Positions 7,216 through 64,000 of a DNA stretch of 64,000 nt are shown one piece after another. This stretch comes from Candidatus Nomurabacteria bacterium (GTDB lineage: Bacteria > Patescibacteriota > Saccharimonadia > Saccharimonadales > Saccharimonadaceae): positions 3,919-67,918 of the forward strand of contig JAITNW010000012.1 of the NCBI GenBank assembly GCA_031290255.1, written 5' to 3'. Below the pieces are notes generated by a model. The model was given only the letters and a program-made list of their open reading frames with translations. It was not told the DNA's origin and did no database searches. Within the stretch, counting starts at the first letter, position 1. Each line of letters opens with the position of its first letter. A program made the translations under genes and the position numbers.

Positions 7216-7261
7216 ACCCACAAAAACCCCGAGCGACCTCTCTCAGCCACCATATCTCCTC

Positions 7262-7290
7262 ATTATAGCACACCTTATTAAAAAAGTCAA
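7262..7290 (-). promoter_or_regulatory. Consensus sigma70-type promoter (TTGACT-N17-TATAAT) with no downstream ORF
   Basis: Reverse complement of 7262-7290 reads TTGACT, 17-nt spacer, TATAAT. It points into the 3' end of the + strand epimerase gene. Confidence 0.5.
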
Positions 7291-7303
7291 GCTTAAAAGG
7301 GAA

Positions 7304-7445
7304 GAAAAATAAGCTAGGGCCTCCCAAAGGGGATGTGGAAGAGAGGCGTGCACGCCTCTACTTCCAGCCAACTGCAGCGCCTGCGCCCCGTGAAGACGGG
7401 CGCGCACGCAAAAGGGCCCCTTTGGGAGGCCCTAGCTTATTTTTC
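7304..7445 (+). repeat. Palindromic repeat element, copy A (~142 bp)
   Basis: 29-bp perfect outer inverted repeat (7304-7332 / 7417-7445) around a core shared with copies at 10185-10328 and 63799-63941. Sits 10 nt past the eno stop. Confidence 0.85.
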
Positions 7446-10159: not shown

Positions 10160-10184
10160 ATTTTGCCTTCCTAAGAGCGATCGA

Positions 10185-10328
10185 GAAAAGCCTAGCATAT
10201 CTTCTCCAAAGAGGATGTGGAAGAGGGGTGTGCACACCCCTACTTCCAGCCAACTGCAGCGCCTGCGCCCCGTAAAGACGGGCGCGCACGCAAAAGGGCC
10301 TCTTTGGAGAAGATATGCCAGGTTTTTC
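10185..10328 (+). repeat. Palindromic repeat element, copy B (~144 bp)
   Basis: Same core as copy A in the same orientation. Outer stem 10191-10213 / 10300-10322 (22 of 23 complementary). Lies between the 8873 gene stop and uvrC. Confidence 0.85.
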
Positions 10329-19866: not shown

Positions 19867-19928
19867 CAACATAGCCTATTTCACCCACTCAAAAAACCCA
19901 GCAAGCCATCAGCTCACCATATAACTCC

Positions 19929-19957
19929 ATTATATCACACACAACTAAAAAAGTCAA
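19929..19957 (-). promoter_or_regulatory. Consensus promoter (TTGACT-N17-TATAAT) with no downstream ORF
   Basis: Reverse complement reads TTGACT, 17 nt including TGTGTGA, TATAAT. Transcription would run leftward through the 118-bp hairpin. Confidence 0.5.
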
Positions 19958-20561
19958 CCCCCAACTGTTCGGTTATTAAAACACAGAAACGAACAACAAA
20001 AAAGCGTGGAAAACCCACAAAGAATTAAAATAAGTGTTCGGTTTTACACCTTAAAATGCCCAACTTTCCCACCACTTTGTGGAAAACATTACCGGAATTG
20101 AACCCAAAATGGTCTTGCTTTTTTCGAAAAACTTGGATAAACTAAGGACAAGTGGAACAAAAGAAATAAAAACCACTAAAACAAACAACAATTAAGATCA
20201 AAGAAAGGGCTGACCGCGAAGTGAAAAAGCAAAACACAAGCCAAAACAGTCAGCCAACAGATTACATAGTAGTTCAGCTCAAAAAGCGCTGATCTTTTTG
20301 TTAAGCACGTTAACATCGTTCGAATCCGACCATCTAGGAGTTTTGGGCGCGTTTAGGACACGCGTTATAGAAACCGCAAGCACATTCTAAACACACACCT
20401 CCCAATATATAACTCCAAGAGTTAAATACTCTACCTCACACACAATAAGTCTCTCAACAACCACGCAATACAGTTGGCTATACGCTAGCAAGAAATCGTG
20501 GCAGGCTTGTGAACAGGTAATTAAACAAAAATCAAAAAACACAAAAACTCAAGATTTCTAG

Positions 20562-27862: not shown

Positions 27863-27898
27863 TTCAAACACCAAAAACCAGAGCCTAAACCAGGCCAT
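27828..27898 (-). ncRNA. Candidate ~70-nt small RNA
   Basis: Bounded by promoter 27905-27933 (TTGACT-N17-TACAAT, minus strand) and the bidirectional terminator at 27828-27862; no ORF. Internal hairpin GGCCU-GGUUU-AGGCU. Confidence 0.3.
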
Positions 27899-27904
27899 AT
27901 CCTA

Positions 27905-27933
27905 ATTGTATCACAGATTTCATAAAAAGTCAA
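27905..27933 (-). promoter_or_regulatory. Consensus promoter (TTGACT-N17-TACAAT) with no downstream ORF
   Basis: Reverse complement of 27905-27933; points toward the tRNA-Glu terminator. Confidence 0.5.
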
Positions 27934-27975
27934 GCACGAACAGGAAACATTAGGCATTTACCCCCATAATATGGT

Positions 27976-45283: not shown

Positions 45284-46576
45284 CTAATCGCGATTGCGAA
45301 AGCTGAAAAAAATTGGCGTGCCCGTAAATGGGAATTGCTCGCGAATTTTCCGCTCCAAGAACCTTTTGTAGCTCCAATGCAGTAAGCCCAAGTTACTACC
45401 GTACACGATAAACCAAGGCGGACAAGTGTCCGATTGCGTAATATATCGTAGTTTTGGCATCGTATTTTTCAGCCCAGCTGGCGTATGCGCCAATACTGCG
45501 TCAGTTAGGATTTTGTTTAGTTCAGAGGTTTTTATCGTCATCCGACGCTCCGCATCAATTTTTAGTGCCAATTCAAAAATCTTGGTCACGTTTTTGCCAC
45601 TCACGCTGCTCGTCAGAATCACCGGCGCATACGGAATAAAATTAAAATCCTCTTCTAGCTGGTTCAAAATCTCGTCACCCTCCTTCCCCTCAAGATCCGT
45701 TTTGGTCACAATCAGTATAATTCCTTTGCCCGCGTCAATAATCTGCCCCGCCAGAGCCTGATCTAGCTTAGCATGCGACTCAGTACTATCAATCAAAAGA
45801 CAGCAAATATCCGCCTCCTCAATCGCCGCAAGAGTTCGGAGCGCTGAAAACTTCTCTACGCCTACTTCGCGCTTCCCCTGCTTGCGAAGTCCTGCAGTAT
45901 CCAAAATCTCTAAATCTTTACCCTTGTACCTAATTTCCGCCCGATTGATATCGCGCGTTGTCCCAGAAATACTCGCCACAATCGCCTGCTGCTTCTCTGC
46001 CATACTATTGAACAGTGAACTTTTCCCCACATTTGGTCGCCCAATCAGGGCAATTTTCAGCGCGTTTTTATCTTGTTCTGGCTCGTAAACGTCCTCGATA
46101 TTATCAAAAATCGTATCCTCAAGCTCATTTATACCCTGCCCAGTCGTAGCAGATGTCTTGACGACGTTTTTGATTCCCAAATTTCGAAACTCATCTAGGC
46201 CCAGCGATCCACCCAAATCAGTCTTATTCAATACTAATATCACTGGCTTACCGCTTTTCAGGGTTTTCCGCGCGATATTCTTGTCATTATGATCTGTATA
46301 TTTAGTGCCATCAAGCGTCAGCAGAATTAAATCTGCCGCATCTATCGCTTCATCGATTTGCGTCTGGATTGAAGCCTCAAAATCGTCTTCCGGATCTTTT
46401 AGCCCCGCCGTATCAATCAATACATAACTGTCCTTTATGCGCGTCATCACATTGTCACGCGTTGTTCCCGCCTCGCGCGCTACAATTGCAGTTTTTTGTC
46501 GCGCCAGCCGATTAAATAAGCTAGATTTGCCAGCATTCGTTTGCCCAATAATCGCTACAATCGGAAGTTTTTTCAT
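45284..46576 (-). CDS. der: Ribosome-biogenesis GTPase Der (EngA)
   Basis: 430 aa; two G domains (GQTNAGKSSLFN and GRPNVGKSSLFN) plus a KH-like C-terminus. Confidence 0.9.
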   Translation of the reverse strand: MKKLPIVAIIGQTNAGKSSLFNRLARQKTAIVAREAGTTRDNVMTRIKDSYVLIDTAGLKDPEDDFEASIQTQIDEAIDAADLILLTLDGTKYTDHNDKNIARKTLKSGKPVILVLNKTDLGGSLGLDEFRNLGIKNVVKTSATTGQGINELEDTIFDNIEDVYEPEQDKNALKIALIGRPNVGKSSLFNSMAEKQQAIVASISGTTRDINRAEIRYKGKDLEILDTAGLRKQGKREVGVEKFSALRTLAAIEEADICCLLIDSTESHAKLDQALAGQIIDAGKGIILIVTKTDLEGKEGDEILNQLEEDFNFIPYAPVILTSSVSGKNVTKIFELALKIDAERRMTIKTSELNKILTDAVLAHTPAGLKNTMPKLRYITQSDTCPPWFIVYGSNLGLLHWSYKRFLERKIREQFPFTGTPIFFSFRNRD

Positions 46577-55331: not shown

Positions 55332-55370
55332 AAGTAATATTATATCATAATCGCCGATGAGTGGCTTAAC

Positions 55371-55399
55371 TTGACTTTTTCGGTCATCTGTGATACAAT
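55371..55399 (+). promoter_or_regulatory. Consensus promoter (TTGACT-N17-TACAAT) upstream of a terminated short transcript
   Basis: TTGACT 55371-55376, TACAAT 55394-55399. Confidence 0.55.
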
Positions 55400-55405
55400 G
55401 AGAAG

Positions 55406-55486
55406 ATAGGCTGGTCTCTGAGTTATTCTAAGAGCTCTCAGCAAAATCTCACCCCTCAAGAAAAATCCACCGCAAGGTGGCTTTTT
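55406..55486 (+). ncRNA. Candidate ~80-nt small RNA or attenuated leader upstream of uvrA
   Basis: Runs from the 55371-55399 promoter to hairpin CCACC-gcaa-GGTGG + CTTTTT (55467-55486). A second promoter (TTGCCT-N17-TATAAT, 55502-55530) sits between it and uvrA. Confidence 0.35.
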
Positions 55487-62315: not shown

Positions 62316-64000
62316 TCACAACTCGCCCCAATCGTGTCCAATCTGCACGTCAACGGCTAACTTTACGGGGAGTACTGGCGCAATTTGCTCCATAGTTTCT
62401 CGTAAGATCTTAGCAACTTCTTCTTTTTGTGATTCATCACATTCCACGATTAGCGAATCGTGTACCTGTAATAGCAAATCGGCATCTGCGGGTAAGACCT
62501 GATCAAGTTTTATCATCGCAAGCTTCATCAGGTCCGCTTCAGTTCCCTGAATCGGCATATTGGCCGCCGCTCTTTCGGCAGCCGCACGCACGACATAATT
62601 TGGCGACTTCACATCTGGTGTAGGCCTGCGTCGGCCGAAGACTGTTTCTACATATCCCTCATCTCTTGCCTGCGCCAGTGTCGCATCCAGATATCGACGT
62701 ATTGGCAACCTGAGTTCAAAGTATTTTTCAATAAAATCCTTAGATTCTGAGACGCTCATGCCGGTTGCTTCCGATAGACCCTTTGCAGACATTCCATATA
62801 ACACGCCAAAGTTTATCACTTTAGCTGCGCGCCTCTGGTCTGGGGTTACTTGGTCGATCGGTACATGGAATGAGTCGCTGGCAGTTTTCGTGTGAATATC
62901 TAGCCCTGCATTAAAATCTGCAATCAATTTATCGTCGCCAGCCAGAGCTGCGGCCAAGCGAAGCTCAAACTGCGCATAGTCTGCGCTCACAAAAATCTTC
63001 CCTTTGCTCGCTATAAATCCATCACGAATCCGTTTCCCCTCATCCGTCCGTACGGGAATATTTTGCAAATTTGGATTCACACTACTTAATCGTCCTGTCG
63101 CGGTGACGTCTTGCGTATAGGTGGTATGTATCCTTTGATTACTATCCGCAAGTTGTGGCAGCGGCGCTACATACGTGCTAAGTAACTTAGAAATCTCGCG
63201 AATGCGCTCAATCTCTGGGATAATTGGGTGAAGAGCGCGTAATTTGTCGAGTTCTTTTTGTCCAGTAGAATGAAACCGTCGCATTTTTTTGACGCCCTTC
63301 GTCGGCAGCCCGAGTTCTTCATATAGTATTTCAGAAAGCTGCATCGGCGAGTTGATATTGAATGGATGCCCCGCCAAGTTGTAGATCTCCTGCTCAATAC
63401 TCTTAATCTCCTGGTCAAACCCCACCGCCATCGCTGCAAATTTAGCAGGATCTATCGTCACGCCCCGTTTCTCCATTTTGTATAAGATTGGGATAAGCGG
63501 AAAGTCAAGATTCTTTGCCACCCACTTAAGTTTCGGGAACTCAATGAACGCTTGTTGCTGTCTCTCATATTCTTGCGCAGTGACATCCTCAACGCTAAGG
63601 CCAACTTGATCATTCTTCCGAGCCAACGGATCCAGCAAAAAAGCCACCTGCCCCAAATCCCAAAACTTCTCTCCCGCCAGAATCTTCCGAGCAACTTCTT
63701 CATCCTCATGCATAGAATTCTTCACATTCCAACTAAGATATAAATCTGGATCCTCTGCGATTTTGTGATTTTCTCCACTAGAGCCAGCAAGCGTCTGAGG
63801 AGCTTCCAGTAATGGTTCAGAGGAAACTGTGGAAGAGGGGCGAGCCTCGCCCCTACTTCCAGCCGAACGCAAAGGGCGGTGCCCCGTAAAGACGGGCGCA
63901 CCCCCCAAAGTGTTTTCATCTGAACCATTATTGGAAGCTCCCTCACCAACATCTAACTTCCCAAACTTCCACACCAAACTCCGAAACTGAAACCGATTAA
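62316..64000 (-). CDS. polA: DNA polymerase I (partial; continues beyond the window)
   Basis: Pol motifs DYAQFELRLAA, RRAAKVINFGVLYGMS, LLQVHDSLIVE. The frame is open upstream of the ORF-track TTG at 63977 to nt 64000, so the 5'-nuclease domain lies off-window. Confidence 0.9.
   Translation of the reverse strand, partial: NRFQFRSLVWKFGKLDVGEGASNNGSDENTLGGAPVFTGHRPLRSAGSRGEARPSSTVSSEPLLEAPQTLAGSSGENHKIAEDPDLYLSWNVKNSMHEDEEVARKILAGEKFWDLGQVAFLLDPLARKNDQVGLSVEDVTAQEYERQQQAFIEFPKLKWVAKNLDFPLIPILYKMEKRGVTIDPAKFAAMAVGFDQEIKSIEQEIYNLAGHPFNINSPMQLSEILYEELGLPTKGVKKMRRFHSTGQKELDKLRALHPIIPEIERIREISKLLSTYVAPLPQLADSNQRIHTTYTQDVTATGRLSSVNPNLQNIPVRTDEGKRIRDGFIASKGKIFVSADYAQFELRLAAALAGDDKLIADFNAGLDIHTKTASDSFHVPIDQVTPDQRRAAKVINFGVLYGMSAKGLSEATGMSVSESKDFIEKYFELRLPIRRYLDATLAQARDEGYVETVFGRRRPTPDVKSPNYVVRAAAERAAANMPIQGTEADLMKLAMIKLDQVLPADADLLLQVHDSLIVECDESQKEEVAKILRETMEQIAPVLPVKLAVDVQIGHDWGEL
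63799..63941 (+). repeat. Palindromic repeat element, copy C (~143 bp), inside the polA reading frame
   Basis: Same core and orientation as copies A and B; outer arms 63799-63827 / 63912-63941 nearly complementary. Translated in the polA frame as GASNNGSDENTLGGAPVFTGHRPLRSAGSRGEARPSSTVSSEPLLEAP. Confidence 0.8.

What the first reader, a model, noticed from the sequence alone, without database searches (positions are those of the whole stretch)
63799..63941. One copy of the palindromic element is carried in frame inside polA
Seen: copy C lies within the polA reading frame. The frame is open from nt 64000 down through the element into the polymerase motifs and has no stop. The element is translated as about 48 residues (GASNNGSDENTLGGAPVFTGHRPLRSAGSRGEARPSSTVSSEPLLEAP), rich in Gly/Ser/Pro/Arg. 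This stretch appears to be the linker between the off-window 5'-nuclease domain and the rest of the enzyme. Read in the same frame, the minus strand of intergenic copy B gives a related peptide (..APVFTGRRR..). Established: Rickettsia palindromic elements (RPEs) are the classic case of palindromic repeats inserted in frame into protein-coding genes. Inference: this is an RPE-like phenomenon in a different reduced-genome lineage, tolerated because it landed in an inter-domain linker.
Basis: partly seen in the sequence, partly recalled or inferred. Interest (0 to 1): 0.65.

Follow-up and report, generated by a model that had tools for sequence, protein, structure and literature searches.

The report
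Palindromic repeat translated inside polA
A 143-base hairpin-forming repeat found in many places in termite-gut Saccharibacteria genomes sits in frame in the disordered linker of DNA polymerase I; it is one of at least a dozen housekeeping genes colonised this way, a previously undescribed parallel to the palindromic elements of Rickettsia.

Summary
Window 63799-63941 is a 143-nt palindromic element: a 28-bp outer stem and two inner GC-rich hairpins. It lies in frame, with no stop, in polA on the minus strand. It encodes residues 293-340, which AlphaFold2 models as a disordered linker.

The organism is a termite-gut Saccharibacterium. The element belongs to a family of at least 28 copies, 3 of them in this window. 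The consensus fold is a three-way junction with strong covariation. About half the copies lie in frame in housekeeping genes: polA, obg, der, a class I aaRS, dus, two methyltransferases, uvrB, rplV and dnaX. They occur in both orientations and in four frames. A wider superfamily shares only the hairpin apex CCYGTRAMGACRGG.

- Each copy has a locus-specific 20-50 bp stem. True empty sites have no hairpin there. One flank was rewritten as the complement of the other with no change in length.
- The two arms stay complementary as orthologues diverge.
- Cores stay 85-96% identical where synonymous sites are near saturation.
- One strand is the folding strand, and it lies mostly on the C-rich replication strand.

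My best reading is an RPE/MITE-like selfish element, kept only where insertion is tolerated. How it moves is unknown.

The parts
63799..63941 (+). Element copy C. The folding ('pattern') strand is the + strand. It is antisense to polA and is translated from the minus strand as PolA residues 293-340.
   Evidence: (CM hit 63815-63925, 111 bits)
63799..63826 (+). Left arm of outer stem P1. The outer part is locus-specific. The inner part, GGTTCAGAGGAAAC, is shared with the subfamily.
63914..63941 (+). Right arm of outer stem P1.
63830..63861 (+). Hairpin P2: TGGAAGAG-stem-loop-stem-CTACTTCCA.
   Evidence: 6 of 14 pairs have compensatory changes; 99.5% of cells paired
63874..63906 (+). Hairpin P3. 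Its apex CCCGTAAAGACGGG (63883-63896) is the most conserved motif of the superfamily.
62316..64000 (-). The part of polA in the window, ending at the stop codon 62316-62318. It covers the C-terminal end of the 5'-nuclease domain, the linker that carries the element, and the polymerase domain. The gene runs off the window end.
7304..7445 (+). Element copy A, intergenic, between the convergent epimerase (+) and enolase (-) genes. It has a 29-bp perfect outer stem, with an A-run before it and a T-run after it, like a bidirectional terminator.
10184..10328 (+). Element copy B, intergenic, downstream of a 428-aa ORF and upstream of the uvrC promoter. The outer stem is 29 bp and is followed by a T-run.

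Best explanation
Copy C belongs to a previously undescribed family of small, non-coding, palindromic repeat elements of Saccharibacteria.

What it is. The conserved unit is about 85-100 nt. On one strand (the + strand here) it folds into a three-way junction: two GC-rich hairpins (P2 and P3) closed by a stem (P1). The P3 apex CCCGTRAAGACGGG is the part conserved across the whole superfamily. I infer that it is the recognition site for an unidentified trans-acting enzyme that copies or moves the element as single-stranded nucleic acid.

How the stem forms. During or soon after insertion, one flank is rewritten over about 20-40 nt as the reverse complement of the other flank, with no change in length. 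This gives every copy its own long stem. The arms then stay complementary over long evolutionary times. I infer templated intra-strand repair, template switching or arm-to-arm conversion as the cause. The core can also be inverted between its arms, or lost while the arms remain.

Why it survives in genes. Only insertions that keep the frame, carry no stop codon and fall in disordered linkers or tails survive. The polA copy is one of these. It entered the linker between the 5'-nuclease and polymerase domains before the window organism split from the GCA_047974525.1 lineage. It is translated as 48 Gly/Ser/Pro/Arg-rich disordered residues and is tolerated by an enzyme that remains under purifying selection.

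Shown: the repeat family, the in-frame insertion, the disordered location, vertical inheritance, covariation, arm co-evolution, core conservation and strand asymmetry.

Inferred: mobility, its mechanism, the templated rewriting of the arms, and the selfish rather than useful nature of the element.
For: Family size. There are 28 full-length CM hits at 103-128 bits in the window and in 25 loci from independent assemblies, plus degenerate copies.

Structure. 95.7% of cells are paired, against 81% in shuffles (0 of 500 shuffles reach it). 23 of 37 pairs show double compensatory changes. Structures slid by 1-3 columns pair only 38-53%.

Presence and absence among orthologues. This is seen for PolA, Obg, Der and the TrmA-like methyltransferase. 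The net insertions are +96 nt and +99 nt. The two true empty sites have no inverted repeat beyond chance (5-6 bp).

Flank rewriting. In the methyltransferase, the right arm KSEEILD is native; the empty orthologue reads KSEDVLD there. The left arm is its inverted complement and replaces native sequence, so the flank length is unchanged at 20 aa on both sides.

Outer stems. The median is 38 bp, against 8.5 bp when the core is placed between random flanks.

Arm co-evolution. The 5' arm in Obg is orthologous codon by codon in L001, L032, L033 and L010. In each locus the 3' arm matches its own 5' arm. L033 has lost the core but keeps a 19-bp perfect inverted repeat. L010 has the same arms with the core inverted.

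Signs of repeated activity. Partial second elements lie next to full copies. A copy of the same subfamily is in dnaX, in the same metagenome sample.

Filter on coding copies. All coding copies keep the ORF open, yet the element is not unusually free of stop codons (2.8 open frames per copy against 2.4 in shuffles). The chance that 10 unfiltered insertions would all stay open is about 7e-9.

Location. The polA linker is disordered. Other insertion sites are also at domain boundaries or tails.

Host gene. polA is under purifying selection: 78% amino-acid identity against 41% identity at four-fold sites.
Against: - No autonomous partner or transposase with matching ends was found in about 290 kb of loci.
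- No consistent target-site duplication was found.
- Cores of orthologous copies are 85-96% identical while four-fold sites of the host genes are only 33-57% identical. Dead copies of a selfish element should not be this well kept.
- The folding strand lies mostly on the C-rich (lagging) strand, 24:5. This is the opposite of the polarity I recall for IS200/IS605 elements and group II introns, which favour the lagging-strand template.
- No transcript or protein data exist for these organisms.
Confidence: 0.6

Rival explanations
1. The element is a functional, host-selected single-stranded DNA (or RNA) signal, whether domesticated or never selfish. On this reading the conserved junction and P3 apex are bound by a protein of replication, recombination, repair or DNA uptake, in an orientation tied to the direction of replication. 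The in-gene copies are kept because the signal is needed about once per 20 kb.
For: - The core is far better conserved than neutral sites in orthologous copies (0.85-0.96 against 0.33-0.57), while the arms diverge like host DNA.
- Mismatches in the arms are G.T on the pattern strand 40 times and on the complement 12 times (p = 1e-4). The ratio is the same for sense, antisense and intergenic copies. This is opposite to what the compositional skew predicts, so it points to selection for folding of that one strand whatever the direction of host transcription.
- The orientation follows GC skew 24:5 (p = 5e-4), or 20:5 after collapsing orthologues (p = 0.004).
- The P3 apex is conserved at the Obg linker across Saccharibacteria that share only 66-70% identity.
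Against: - Many orthologues and whole lineages do without the element at each site.
- Cores are lost (L033) or decay (L013 5794-5891, L022 5158-5241).
- Nested and partial copies and sequence subfamilies look like transposition.
- Part of the conservation signal may come from ascertainment, because most copies were found with a strict core pattern.
- Gene conversion among copies could also keep the cores alike.
- No candidate binding protein is known.
Confidence: 0.25
2. The element is a cis-acting RNA element of the host transcripts: a transcription terminator or attenuator, an RNase III site or an mRNA stabiliser. On this reading the polA copy regulates polA expression.
For: - Copies A and B sit at gene ends. 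Their long stems have an A-run before them and a T-run after them, as bidirectional terminators do.
- The L029 polA copy also has A6 and T6 runs around its stem.
- The structure is well supported.
Against: - Coding copies occur both sense (5-6) and antisense (about 11) to the host mRNA.
- The wobble asymmetry is the same in both orientations, so in polA the better-folding strand is not the mRNA strand.
- Orthologous Obg and Dus sites carry the core in opposite orientations.
- Copy C has no T-run after its stem.
Confidence: 0.07
3. The segment is removed before the protein is made or matures, as an intron-like, RNase-excised or intein-like insertion. On this reading the translated peptide is not part of PolA.
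For: CPR bacteria are known (from my own knowledge) to carry rRNA insertions that are absent from the mature rRNA. A long basal helix could mark an excision site.
Against: - Every coding copy keeps the host frame and has no stop, in four different frames. That is expected only if the copies are translated.
- The 48 residues show no intein features in the translated sequence; no domain scan was run on this segment.
- No Rfam intron or ribozyme family matches.
Confidence: 0.03

Closest known systems
Rickettsia palindromic elements (RPE-1 to RPE-10)
   Same: - Palindromic repeats of about 100-150 bp with no coding capacity of their own.
- Often inserted in frame in unrelated housekeeping genes of a reduced-genome bacterium.
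- Translated as extra segments compatible with the host protein fold.
- Also found in intergenic regions.
- Mechanism of mobility unknown.
(Review PMC10969869.)
   Different: - A different phylum (Saccharibacteria/CPR).
- No sequence relationship was tested or is expected.
- The conserved part here is the centre (a three-way junction), while the outer stem differs in sequence at every locus.
- The arms co-evolve, the core can be inverted, and old orthologous copies keep 85-96% core identity.
- Four reading frames and both orientations are used, rather than one conserved peptide per family.
Bacterial MITEs (Correia/NEMIS, ERIC, BOX/RUP, Nezha and others)
   Same: - Small, non-autonomous, multi-copy and hairpin-forming.
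- Occasionally make in-frame fusions.
- Can act as terminators or promoters when intergenic.
   Different: - MITEs are defined by terminal inverted repeats shared by all copies and with a parent IS, and by target-site duplications.
- Here only about 10 bp of the inner stem is shared. The rest of the 'TIR' is made from local flanking sequence.
- No target-site duplication and no parent IS were found.
REP/REPIN elements with RAYT, and IS200/IS605-derived PATEs
   Same: - GC-rich imperfect hairpins recognised as single-stranded DNA.
- Strand-specific, with orientation biased relative to replication.
- No terminal inverted repeats or target-site duplication needed.
   Different: - REPs are extragenic, 20-40 nt long and carry a conserved GTAG.
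- In REPINs the arms are the conserved part and the loop varies, which is the reverse of what is seen here.
- No Y1/HUH transposase gene was seen in the sampled loci.
- The strand polarity here (folding strand on the C-rich strand) is opposite to the lagging-strand-template rule I recall for IS608.
Quasipalindrome correction by intramolecular template switching (Ripley model; E. coli thyA and lacZ hotspots). This is a process, not an element.
   Same: Length-preserving templated changes make imperfect inverted repeats perfect and can extend them. This is the signature seen in the methyltransferase and Obg arms.
   Different: - The known cases are mutational hotspots of a few bases.
- As far as I know, they are not a systematic builder of 20-50 bp stems around a mobile core.
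- Not demonstrated here.

Membership tests
Rickettsia palindromic elements (RPE) | Repeated palindromic element of about 100-150 bp | tested here: met
   The element is 143 nt with a 28-bp stem. There are 28 full copies, and most hairpins are 137-152 nt long.
Rickettsia palindromic elements (RPE) | Recurrent in-frame insertion in unrelated protein-coding genes, with the ORF preserved | tested here: met
   At least 12 host gene families carry in-frame copies.
Rickettsia palindromic elements (RPE) | Sequence homology to an RPE family and occurrence in Rickettsia | tested here: not met
   The occurrence half of the feature was tested and fails: the host is a termite-gut Saccharibacterium, not Rickettsia. 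The homology half was not tested: no RPE sequences were available for direct comparison. I therefore file it as working like an RPE, not as a member.
MITE | Terminal inverted repeats conserved among copies | tested here: not met
   Only about 10 bp of the inner stem is shared. The outer 20-40 bp of each arm is locus-specific.
MITE | Target-site duplication (direct repeats flanking the element) | tested here: inconclusive
   The consensus TTCTGAAGAA on both sides is nearly its own complement. Copies with divergent inner stems (winA, winB, L012) show no direct repeat (my reading).
MITE | A parent autonomous IS with the same ends | tested here: inconclusive
   No solo ends flank an ORF in about 290 kb of loci. 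Whole genomes were not available.
REP/REPIN-RAYT | Extragenic location, a 20-40 nt palindrome with conserved arms, and an associated RAYT gene | tested here: not met
   About half the copies are intragenic. The arms vary while the centre is conserved. RAYT was not searched genome-wide.
IS200/IS605-type single-strand elements (PATE) | Strand-specific folding and orientation bias relative to replication | tested here: inconclusive
   Strand-specific wobble is 40:12 and the orientation bias is 24:5. However, the folding strand is on the C-rich strand, opposite to the polarity I recall for IS608. No TnpA was found.
Known structured RNA families (Rfam 15) | A match to a curated covariance model | tested here: not met
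   Only tRNAs reach the gathering score in the window. At E-value up to 10, the element region gives only chance hits to a snoRNA and a miRNA model.
Intein or self-splicing intron | Splicing motifs or a ribozyme core, with no constraint on the frame of the insert | tested here: not met
   The insert is 48 aa with no intein motifs. There is no Rfam intron hit. Every copy preserves the frame.

The most novel reading that the evidence does not exclude
The element may be more than tolerated junk. On this reading, its conserved three-way-junction core is a strand-specific single-stranded-DNA signal under purifying selection. It is used by an unknown Saccharibacteria or CPR enzyme and is oriented with replication. 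It is also coupled to an active 'palindromising' process that keeps rewriting the adjacent coding sequence into the complement of the opposite flank. That would be a new way of generating and turning over protein linkers in reduced genomes, and a new kind of genome-wide DNA signal.
Probability: 0.25. Interest if true: 0.85.

Novelty: new variant of a known kind. Interest (0 to 1): 0.7.

Why it matters
- It extends the phenomenon of selfish palindromes inside genes from Rickettsia to the Candidate Phyla Radiation. A sizeable part of the hypervariable linkers of essential proteins there (PolA, Obg, Der, DnaX, IleRS-like and others) is built from repeat DNA.
- It offers a clean natural system for two open questions: how such elements move, which is still unknown for RPEs, and how long palindromes are created and kept perfect. 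The rewritten flanks and co-evolving arms are direct footprints of a templated process.
- Practically, the family confuses gene callers, alignments and assemblies of Saccharibacteria. De Bruijn unitigs break inside it.
- The conserved hairpin apex is a handle for finding the enzyme that recognises it.

Tried and rejected
- **Rfam.** Scans at gathering and at permissive thresholds found no family.
- **Phage origin.** The core pattern is absent from 2.9 million viral contigs.
- **Pre-existing hairpins as targets (for example terminators).** Rejected for the Der and methyltransferase sites. Their empty orthologues have no inverted repeat beyond chance.
- **Compensatory point mutations building the outer stem.** Rejected as too slow. 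Cores of different loci are up to 99% identical while their arms are unrelated.
- **Element evolved to be stop-free in all frames.** Not supported: 2.8 open frames against 2.4 in shuffles.
- **Target-site duplication.** No consistent direct repeat.
- **Profile search with the translated a1-frame peptide.** The first attempt was too short for the tool. The 45-aa profile gave 27 word candidates, none significant, so that search was largely wasted.
- **phmmer of the polA peptide against 1.84 billion representatives.** It gave one true hit (DnaX, P0241) and one spurious repeat protein.
- **Look-up of the P0241 contig.** Not on record.
- **RNA runs.** None available.
- **Solo element ends flanking an ORF (an autonomous partner).** None found.
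Full report
**1. The observation**

Window 63799-63941 is a 143-nt palindromic element. Its terminal arms, 63799-63826 and 63914-63941, are 28 nt long and 93% complementary. They enclose two GC-rich hairpins. Either strand folds far better than shuffled sequence: the + strand at -96.9 kcal/mol (z = -11.4) and the - strand at -94.0 kcal/mol (z = -8.7).

On the minus strand, the frame that begins at 63998 stays open down to the stop at 62316-62318. It reads NRFQFRSLVWKFGKLDVGEGASNNGSDENTLGGAPVFTGHRPLRSAGSRGEARPSSTVSSEPLLEAPQT..., followed by the DNA polymerase I motifs. The element is therefore translated as 48 residues.

The full protein is in the public protein collection as P0001. It is 833 aa long and has the 5'-3' exonuclease and DNA_pol_A domains. 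Two further copies lie in the window:
- A CM hit at 7321-7428, between the convergent epimerase and enolase genes.
- A CM hit at 10203-10310, between an unknown ORF and uvrC.

An independent Logan assembly of a termite-gut metagenome run tiles the element and both junctions with polA with zero differences. Its unitigs break inside the element because another copy shares a 30-mer with it.

**2. The organism, and whether it is an insertion**

The closest PolA proteins are all from Saccharibacteria. The DNA comes from termite-gut metagenomes.

I aligned the 40 closest orthologues. The segment between the conserved F-x-S-L-[IV]-x-K-F and L-S-W-[ND]-V-K blocks varies greatly in length and sequence. 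The pattern among orthologues is:
- P0002 (MAG GCA_047974525.1; 74% identity by BLASTP, 78% over the aligned residues) and P0004 carry the same peptide, APVFTGxRPxRSAGxRGxAxPSS.
- P0006 carries the element in another frame (..ARPSSRGAGAGVRLEV..).
- P0003 carries an 89-nt element of a related, shorter family. That element is 94% identical to a copy in the obg gene of a related contig from another sample.
- More than 30 other orthologues have nothing similar.

AlphaFold2, run with this alignment, gives high confidence for residues 1-288 (5'-nuclease) and for 356-833. For residues 291-352 it gives pLDDT of 24-34 and no secondary structure. The element encodes residues 293-340.

The window and P0002 copies have homologous arms, so the insertion predates the split of these two lineages. 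polA itself is under purifying selection: 78% amino-acid identity against 41% identity at four-fold sites.

**3. The family**

A strict core pattern found one species-representative genome and 22 genuine metagenome loci. Four further hits were chance matches in high-GC DNA.

I aligned 27 non-redundant copies. The consensus is a three-way junction: P1 (closing stem), P2 (TGGAAGAG...CTAYTTCCA) and P3 (apex CCCGTRAAGACGGG). Support for the structure is strong:
- 23 of 37 pairs show changes on both sides.
- 95.7% of cells are paired, against 81% in column shuffles (0 of 500 shuffles reach it).
- Only 38-53% are paired when the structure is slid by 1-3 columns.

A covariance model built from the alignment recovers 28 full copies at 103-128 bits and a few degenerate ones. 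The window holds just three. No Rfam family matches. The pattern is absent from viral contigs. Literature searches for palindromic or MITE-like repeats in Saccharibacteria or Patescibacteria found nothing relevant.

**4. In-frame copies are the rule**

About 16 of the 28 copies lie inside long ORFs that are recognisable genes:
- PolA, four times, in two frames.
- Obg.
- Der/EngA, between its two GTPase domains.
- A class I aminoacyl-tRNA synthetase, between the catalytic and anticodon-binding domains.
- Dus.
- A TrmA-like methyltransferase and an RMKL-like methyltransferase.
- UvrB.
- The C-terminal tail of ribosomal protein L22.
- TatD (a degenerate copy).

A phmmer search with the polA peptide found DnaX (P0241), which carries two copies in opposite orientations. 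A unitig in the same run that holds the window encodes exactly the DnaX flank, at similar depth.

Both orientations and four of the six frames are used. The element is not unusually free of stop codons: 2.8 open frames per copy against 2.4 in shuffles. The intact ORFs therefore reflect selection acting after insertion. Ten unfiltered insertions would all stay open with probability about 7e-9. This also argues against any removal at the RNA or protein level.

Review PMC10969869 describes RPEs as the extreme known case of this behaviour and speculates that it may occur elsewhere.

**5. Locus-specific arms**

Only the core and about 10 bp of the inner stem are shared among copies. Outside that, every copy has its own well-paired stem.
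- The arms are 89% matched overall.
- The median stem is 38 bp, against 8.5 bp when the same core is placed between random flanks from the same loci.
- Whole hairpins are mostly 137-152 nt and reach about 220 nt.

Two true empty sites show how this arises.
- The window's own der gene (45287-46576) differs from its filled orthologue (L025) by a net 96 nt. The L028 methyltransferase differs from L004 by a net 99 nt.
- Neither empty site has an inverted repeat beyond chance.
- In the methyltransferase, removing 99 nt leaves flanks of equal length (20 aa on both sides). The right arm (KSEEILD) is the native sequence (KSEDVLD in the empty orthologue). The left arm is its inverted complement and replaces native residues.

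So the stem is made by rewriting one flank as the complement of the other, with no change in length. It is not made by insertion into an existing hairpin, and it is not added DNA.

**6. The arms co-evolve, and the core can flip or be lost**

In Obg, the 5' arm is orthologous codon by codon in four loci (K-L-[AVN]-[NQ]-[LIV]-[QRHG]-[HLY]). In each locus the 3' arm is complementary to that locus's own 5' arm. L032 has 22 perfect pairs. The genes are only 75-80% identical at the DNA level.
- L010 has the same arms but the core in the opposite orientation.
- L033 has no core at all. It keeps a 19-bp perfect inverted repeat around a 21-nt loop (CGCGAATTCTTCAGAATCGCC) that contains TTCTTCAGAA. The region's MFE is -39.2 kcal/mol, against -14.6 +/- 3.2 in shuffles.

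Similar co-ordinated changes are seen in the pairs winC/L028, L003/L018 and L012/L017. Dus carries the element at the same linker in both orientations, but there the arms are unrelated. Partial second elements lie next to full ones in L001 and L013.

**7. Core constraint and strand asymmetry**

*Core constraint.* Across orthologous-site pairs, the core is 85-96% identical while four-fold sites in the host genes are 33-57% identical. The window's polA core resembles its orthologue in L028 (92%) much more than it does copies A and B in the same genome (my comparison of the rows).

*Folding strand.* Transition mismatches in the arms give G.T on the 'pattern' strand (the + strand in this window) 40 times and on the complement 12 times (p = 1e-4). 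The ratio is about 3:1 in sense, antisense and intergenic copies alike. Pair 21/42 in P2 is G-C in 16 copies and G.U in 11. The compositional skew predicts the opposite bias. I therefore infer that the pattern strand is selected to fold as single-stranded nucleic acid, whatever the direction of host transcription.

*Orientation.* The pattern strand lies on the C-rich strand in 24 of 29 copies (p = 5e-4), or 20 of 25 after collapsing orthologues (p = 0.004). In the window, the skew follows the strand and not the orientation of the genes. All three window copies are on the + strand.

**8. A wider superfamily**

Obg linkers of more distant Saccharibacteria (66-72% identity) also hold long structured palindromes whose only shared part is the P3 apex CCYGTRAMGACRGG. 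These include L034, L035 and L036. L035 has a second copy inside a sensor-kinase gene. About 14 of 32 Obg orthologues show element-like sequence in this linker.

**9. Interpretation**

*Best supported (about 0.6).* This is a selfish, non-autonomous palindromic element of the RPE/MITE kind. It spreads by an unknown single-strand mechanism. It survives in genes only where an in-frame, stop-free insertion falls in a disordered linker. The polA copy is an old, vertically inherited, translated passenger.

For the arms, the footprints are length-preserving rewriting, continual complementarity, inversion of the core, and a relic with arms only. These fit templated intra-strand synthesis (quasipalindrome-type template switching) and/or arm-to-arm conversion. 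That step is inferred and not shown.

*Main rival (about 0.25).* The core is a host-used, replication-oriented single-stranded DNA or RNA signal. The core conservation and strand asymmetry favour this reading. Frequent absence, decay, nested copies and subfamilies speak against it.

*Other rivals.* A cis-regulatory RNA role is plausible for intergenic copies A and B, whose stems have A- and T-runs like terminators. It does not explain copies that lie antisense to their host gene. Excision at the RNA or protein level is contradicted by universal frame preservation. An artefact is contradicted by independent assemblies.

**10. Comparison, novelty and limits**

It works like an RPE but is not a member: the phylum is different and no homology was tested. 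It fails the MITE definition on conserved terminal repeats. It fails the REP/REPIN definition on location and on which part is conserved. It shares strand specificity with IS200/IS605-type elements, but the polarity is opposite to the one I recall for them, and no transposase was found.

I rate it a new variant of a known kind. The phenomenon of in-gene palindromes is known. The lineage, the conserved-centre and private-stem architecture, the rewriting and co-evolution of the flanks, and the constrained core are new as far as the searchable literature shows.

Limits:
- The sample is about 30 copies, from a few metagenome projects.
- Most copies were found with a strict core pattern.
- No complete genome, transcript or protein data were available.
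- The mobility mechanism is unknown.

Noticed in passing
window 7254-7303, 19921-19970, 27897-27946; inverted copy 55370-55415: A conserved promoter-like repeat, TTGACT-17-TATAAT with an upstream TG. The copy at 7290-7262 (minus strand) is followed at once by a minus-strand terminator-like hairpin at 7251-7232. It may give a very short transcript or an antisense RNA opposite the end of the epimerase gene.
   Followed up: partly
window about 32000-36000: A low-GC island (GC 0.29-0.41, against about 0.47 elsewhere). It contains a Zot-like ATPase ORF (34517-35191) and a DUF2726 ORF (35187-35726). It may be a remnant of a filamentous (ssDNA) phage.
   Followed up: partly
L022 8711-8819: The left arm of an intergenic copy carries TGTATAAT. 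The complementary right arm carries the ribosome-binding site and ATG of the downstream gene. Copying the arm may have created a promoter.
   Followed up: no
L029 4655-4765 (polA of P0004): The polA copy in this lineage has A6 and T6 runs flanking a 34-bp stem. This looks like a bidirectional terminator inside the coding region.
   Followed up: no
P0241 (DnaX, 537 aa), residues 312-359 and about 410-448; unitig 3 of run X1 at window 63814-63843: DnaX carries two copies in opposite orientations. A unitig from the sample that holds the window encodes its flank RPSSTVSSEPPSEAPPQRE at depth 10.5 (the window contig is at 13.5). The window organism therefore probably has the polA-type subfamily in dnaX too.
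   Followed up: partly
L001 5516-5560; L013 5735-5790: Partial 5' halves of a second element (GAAGAAGCTGTGGAAGAGGGGCGAG...) lie directly beside full copies in obg and in the TrmA-like methyltransferase. This suggests nested or repeated insertion at sites already occupied.
   Followed up: partly
L033 503-1780 (Obg P0123): An in-frame relic with arms only: a 19-bp perfect inverted repeat with no core. It reaches into the conserved K-L and L-P-V codons of Obg.
   Followed up: yes
window 62316-64000 and alignment A1: Polymerase motif C reads H-D-S (H786 D787 S788). These positions are invariant in all 40 Saccharibacteria PolA orthologues. Pfam reports no 3'-5' exonuclease domain.
   Followed up: no
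window (whole) and loci L002-L034: GC skew is unusually strong (absolute values 0.3-0.45 in many loci). It follows the DNA strand and not the orientation of the genes.
   Followed up: partly
L003 1164-4571 (class I aaRS): Besides the element, this synthetase has other Ser/Ala/Pro/Arg-rich extra segments (for example SPTPAVAGSARF and DTSSADALLARSMPNTARSATPAFSS). They may be older, decayed element insertions.
   Followed up: no
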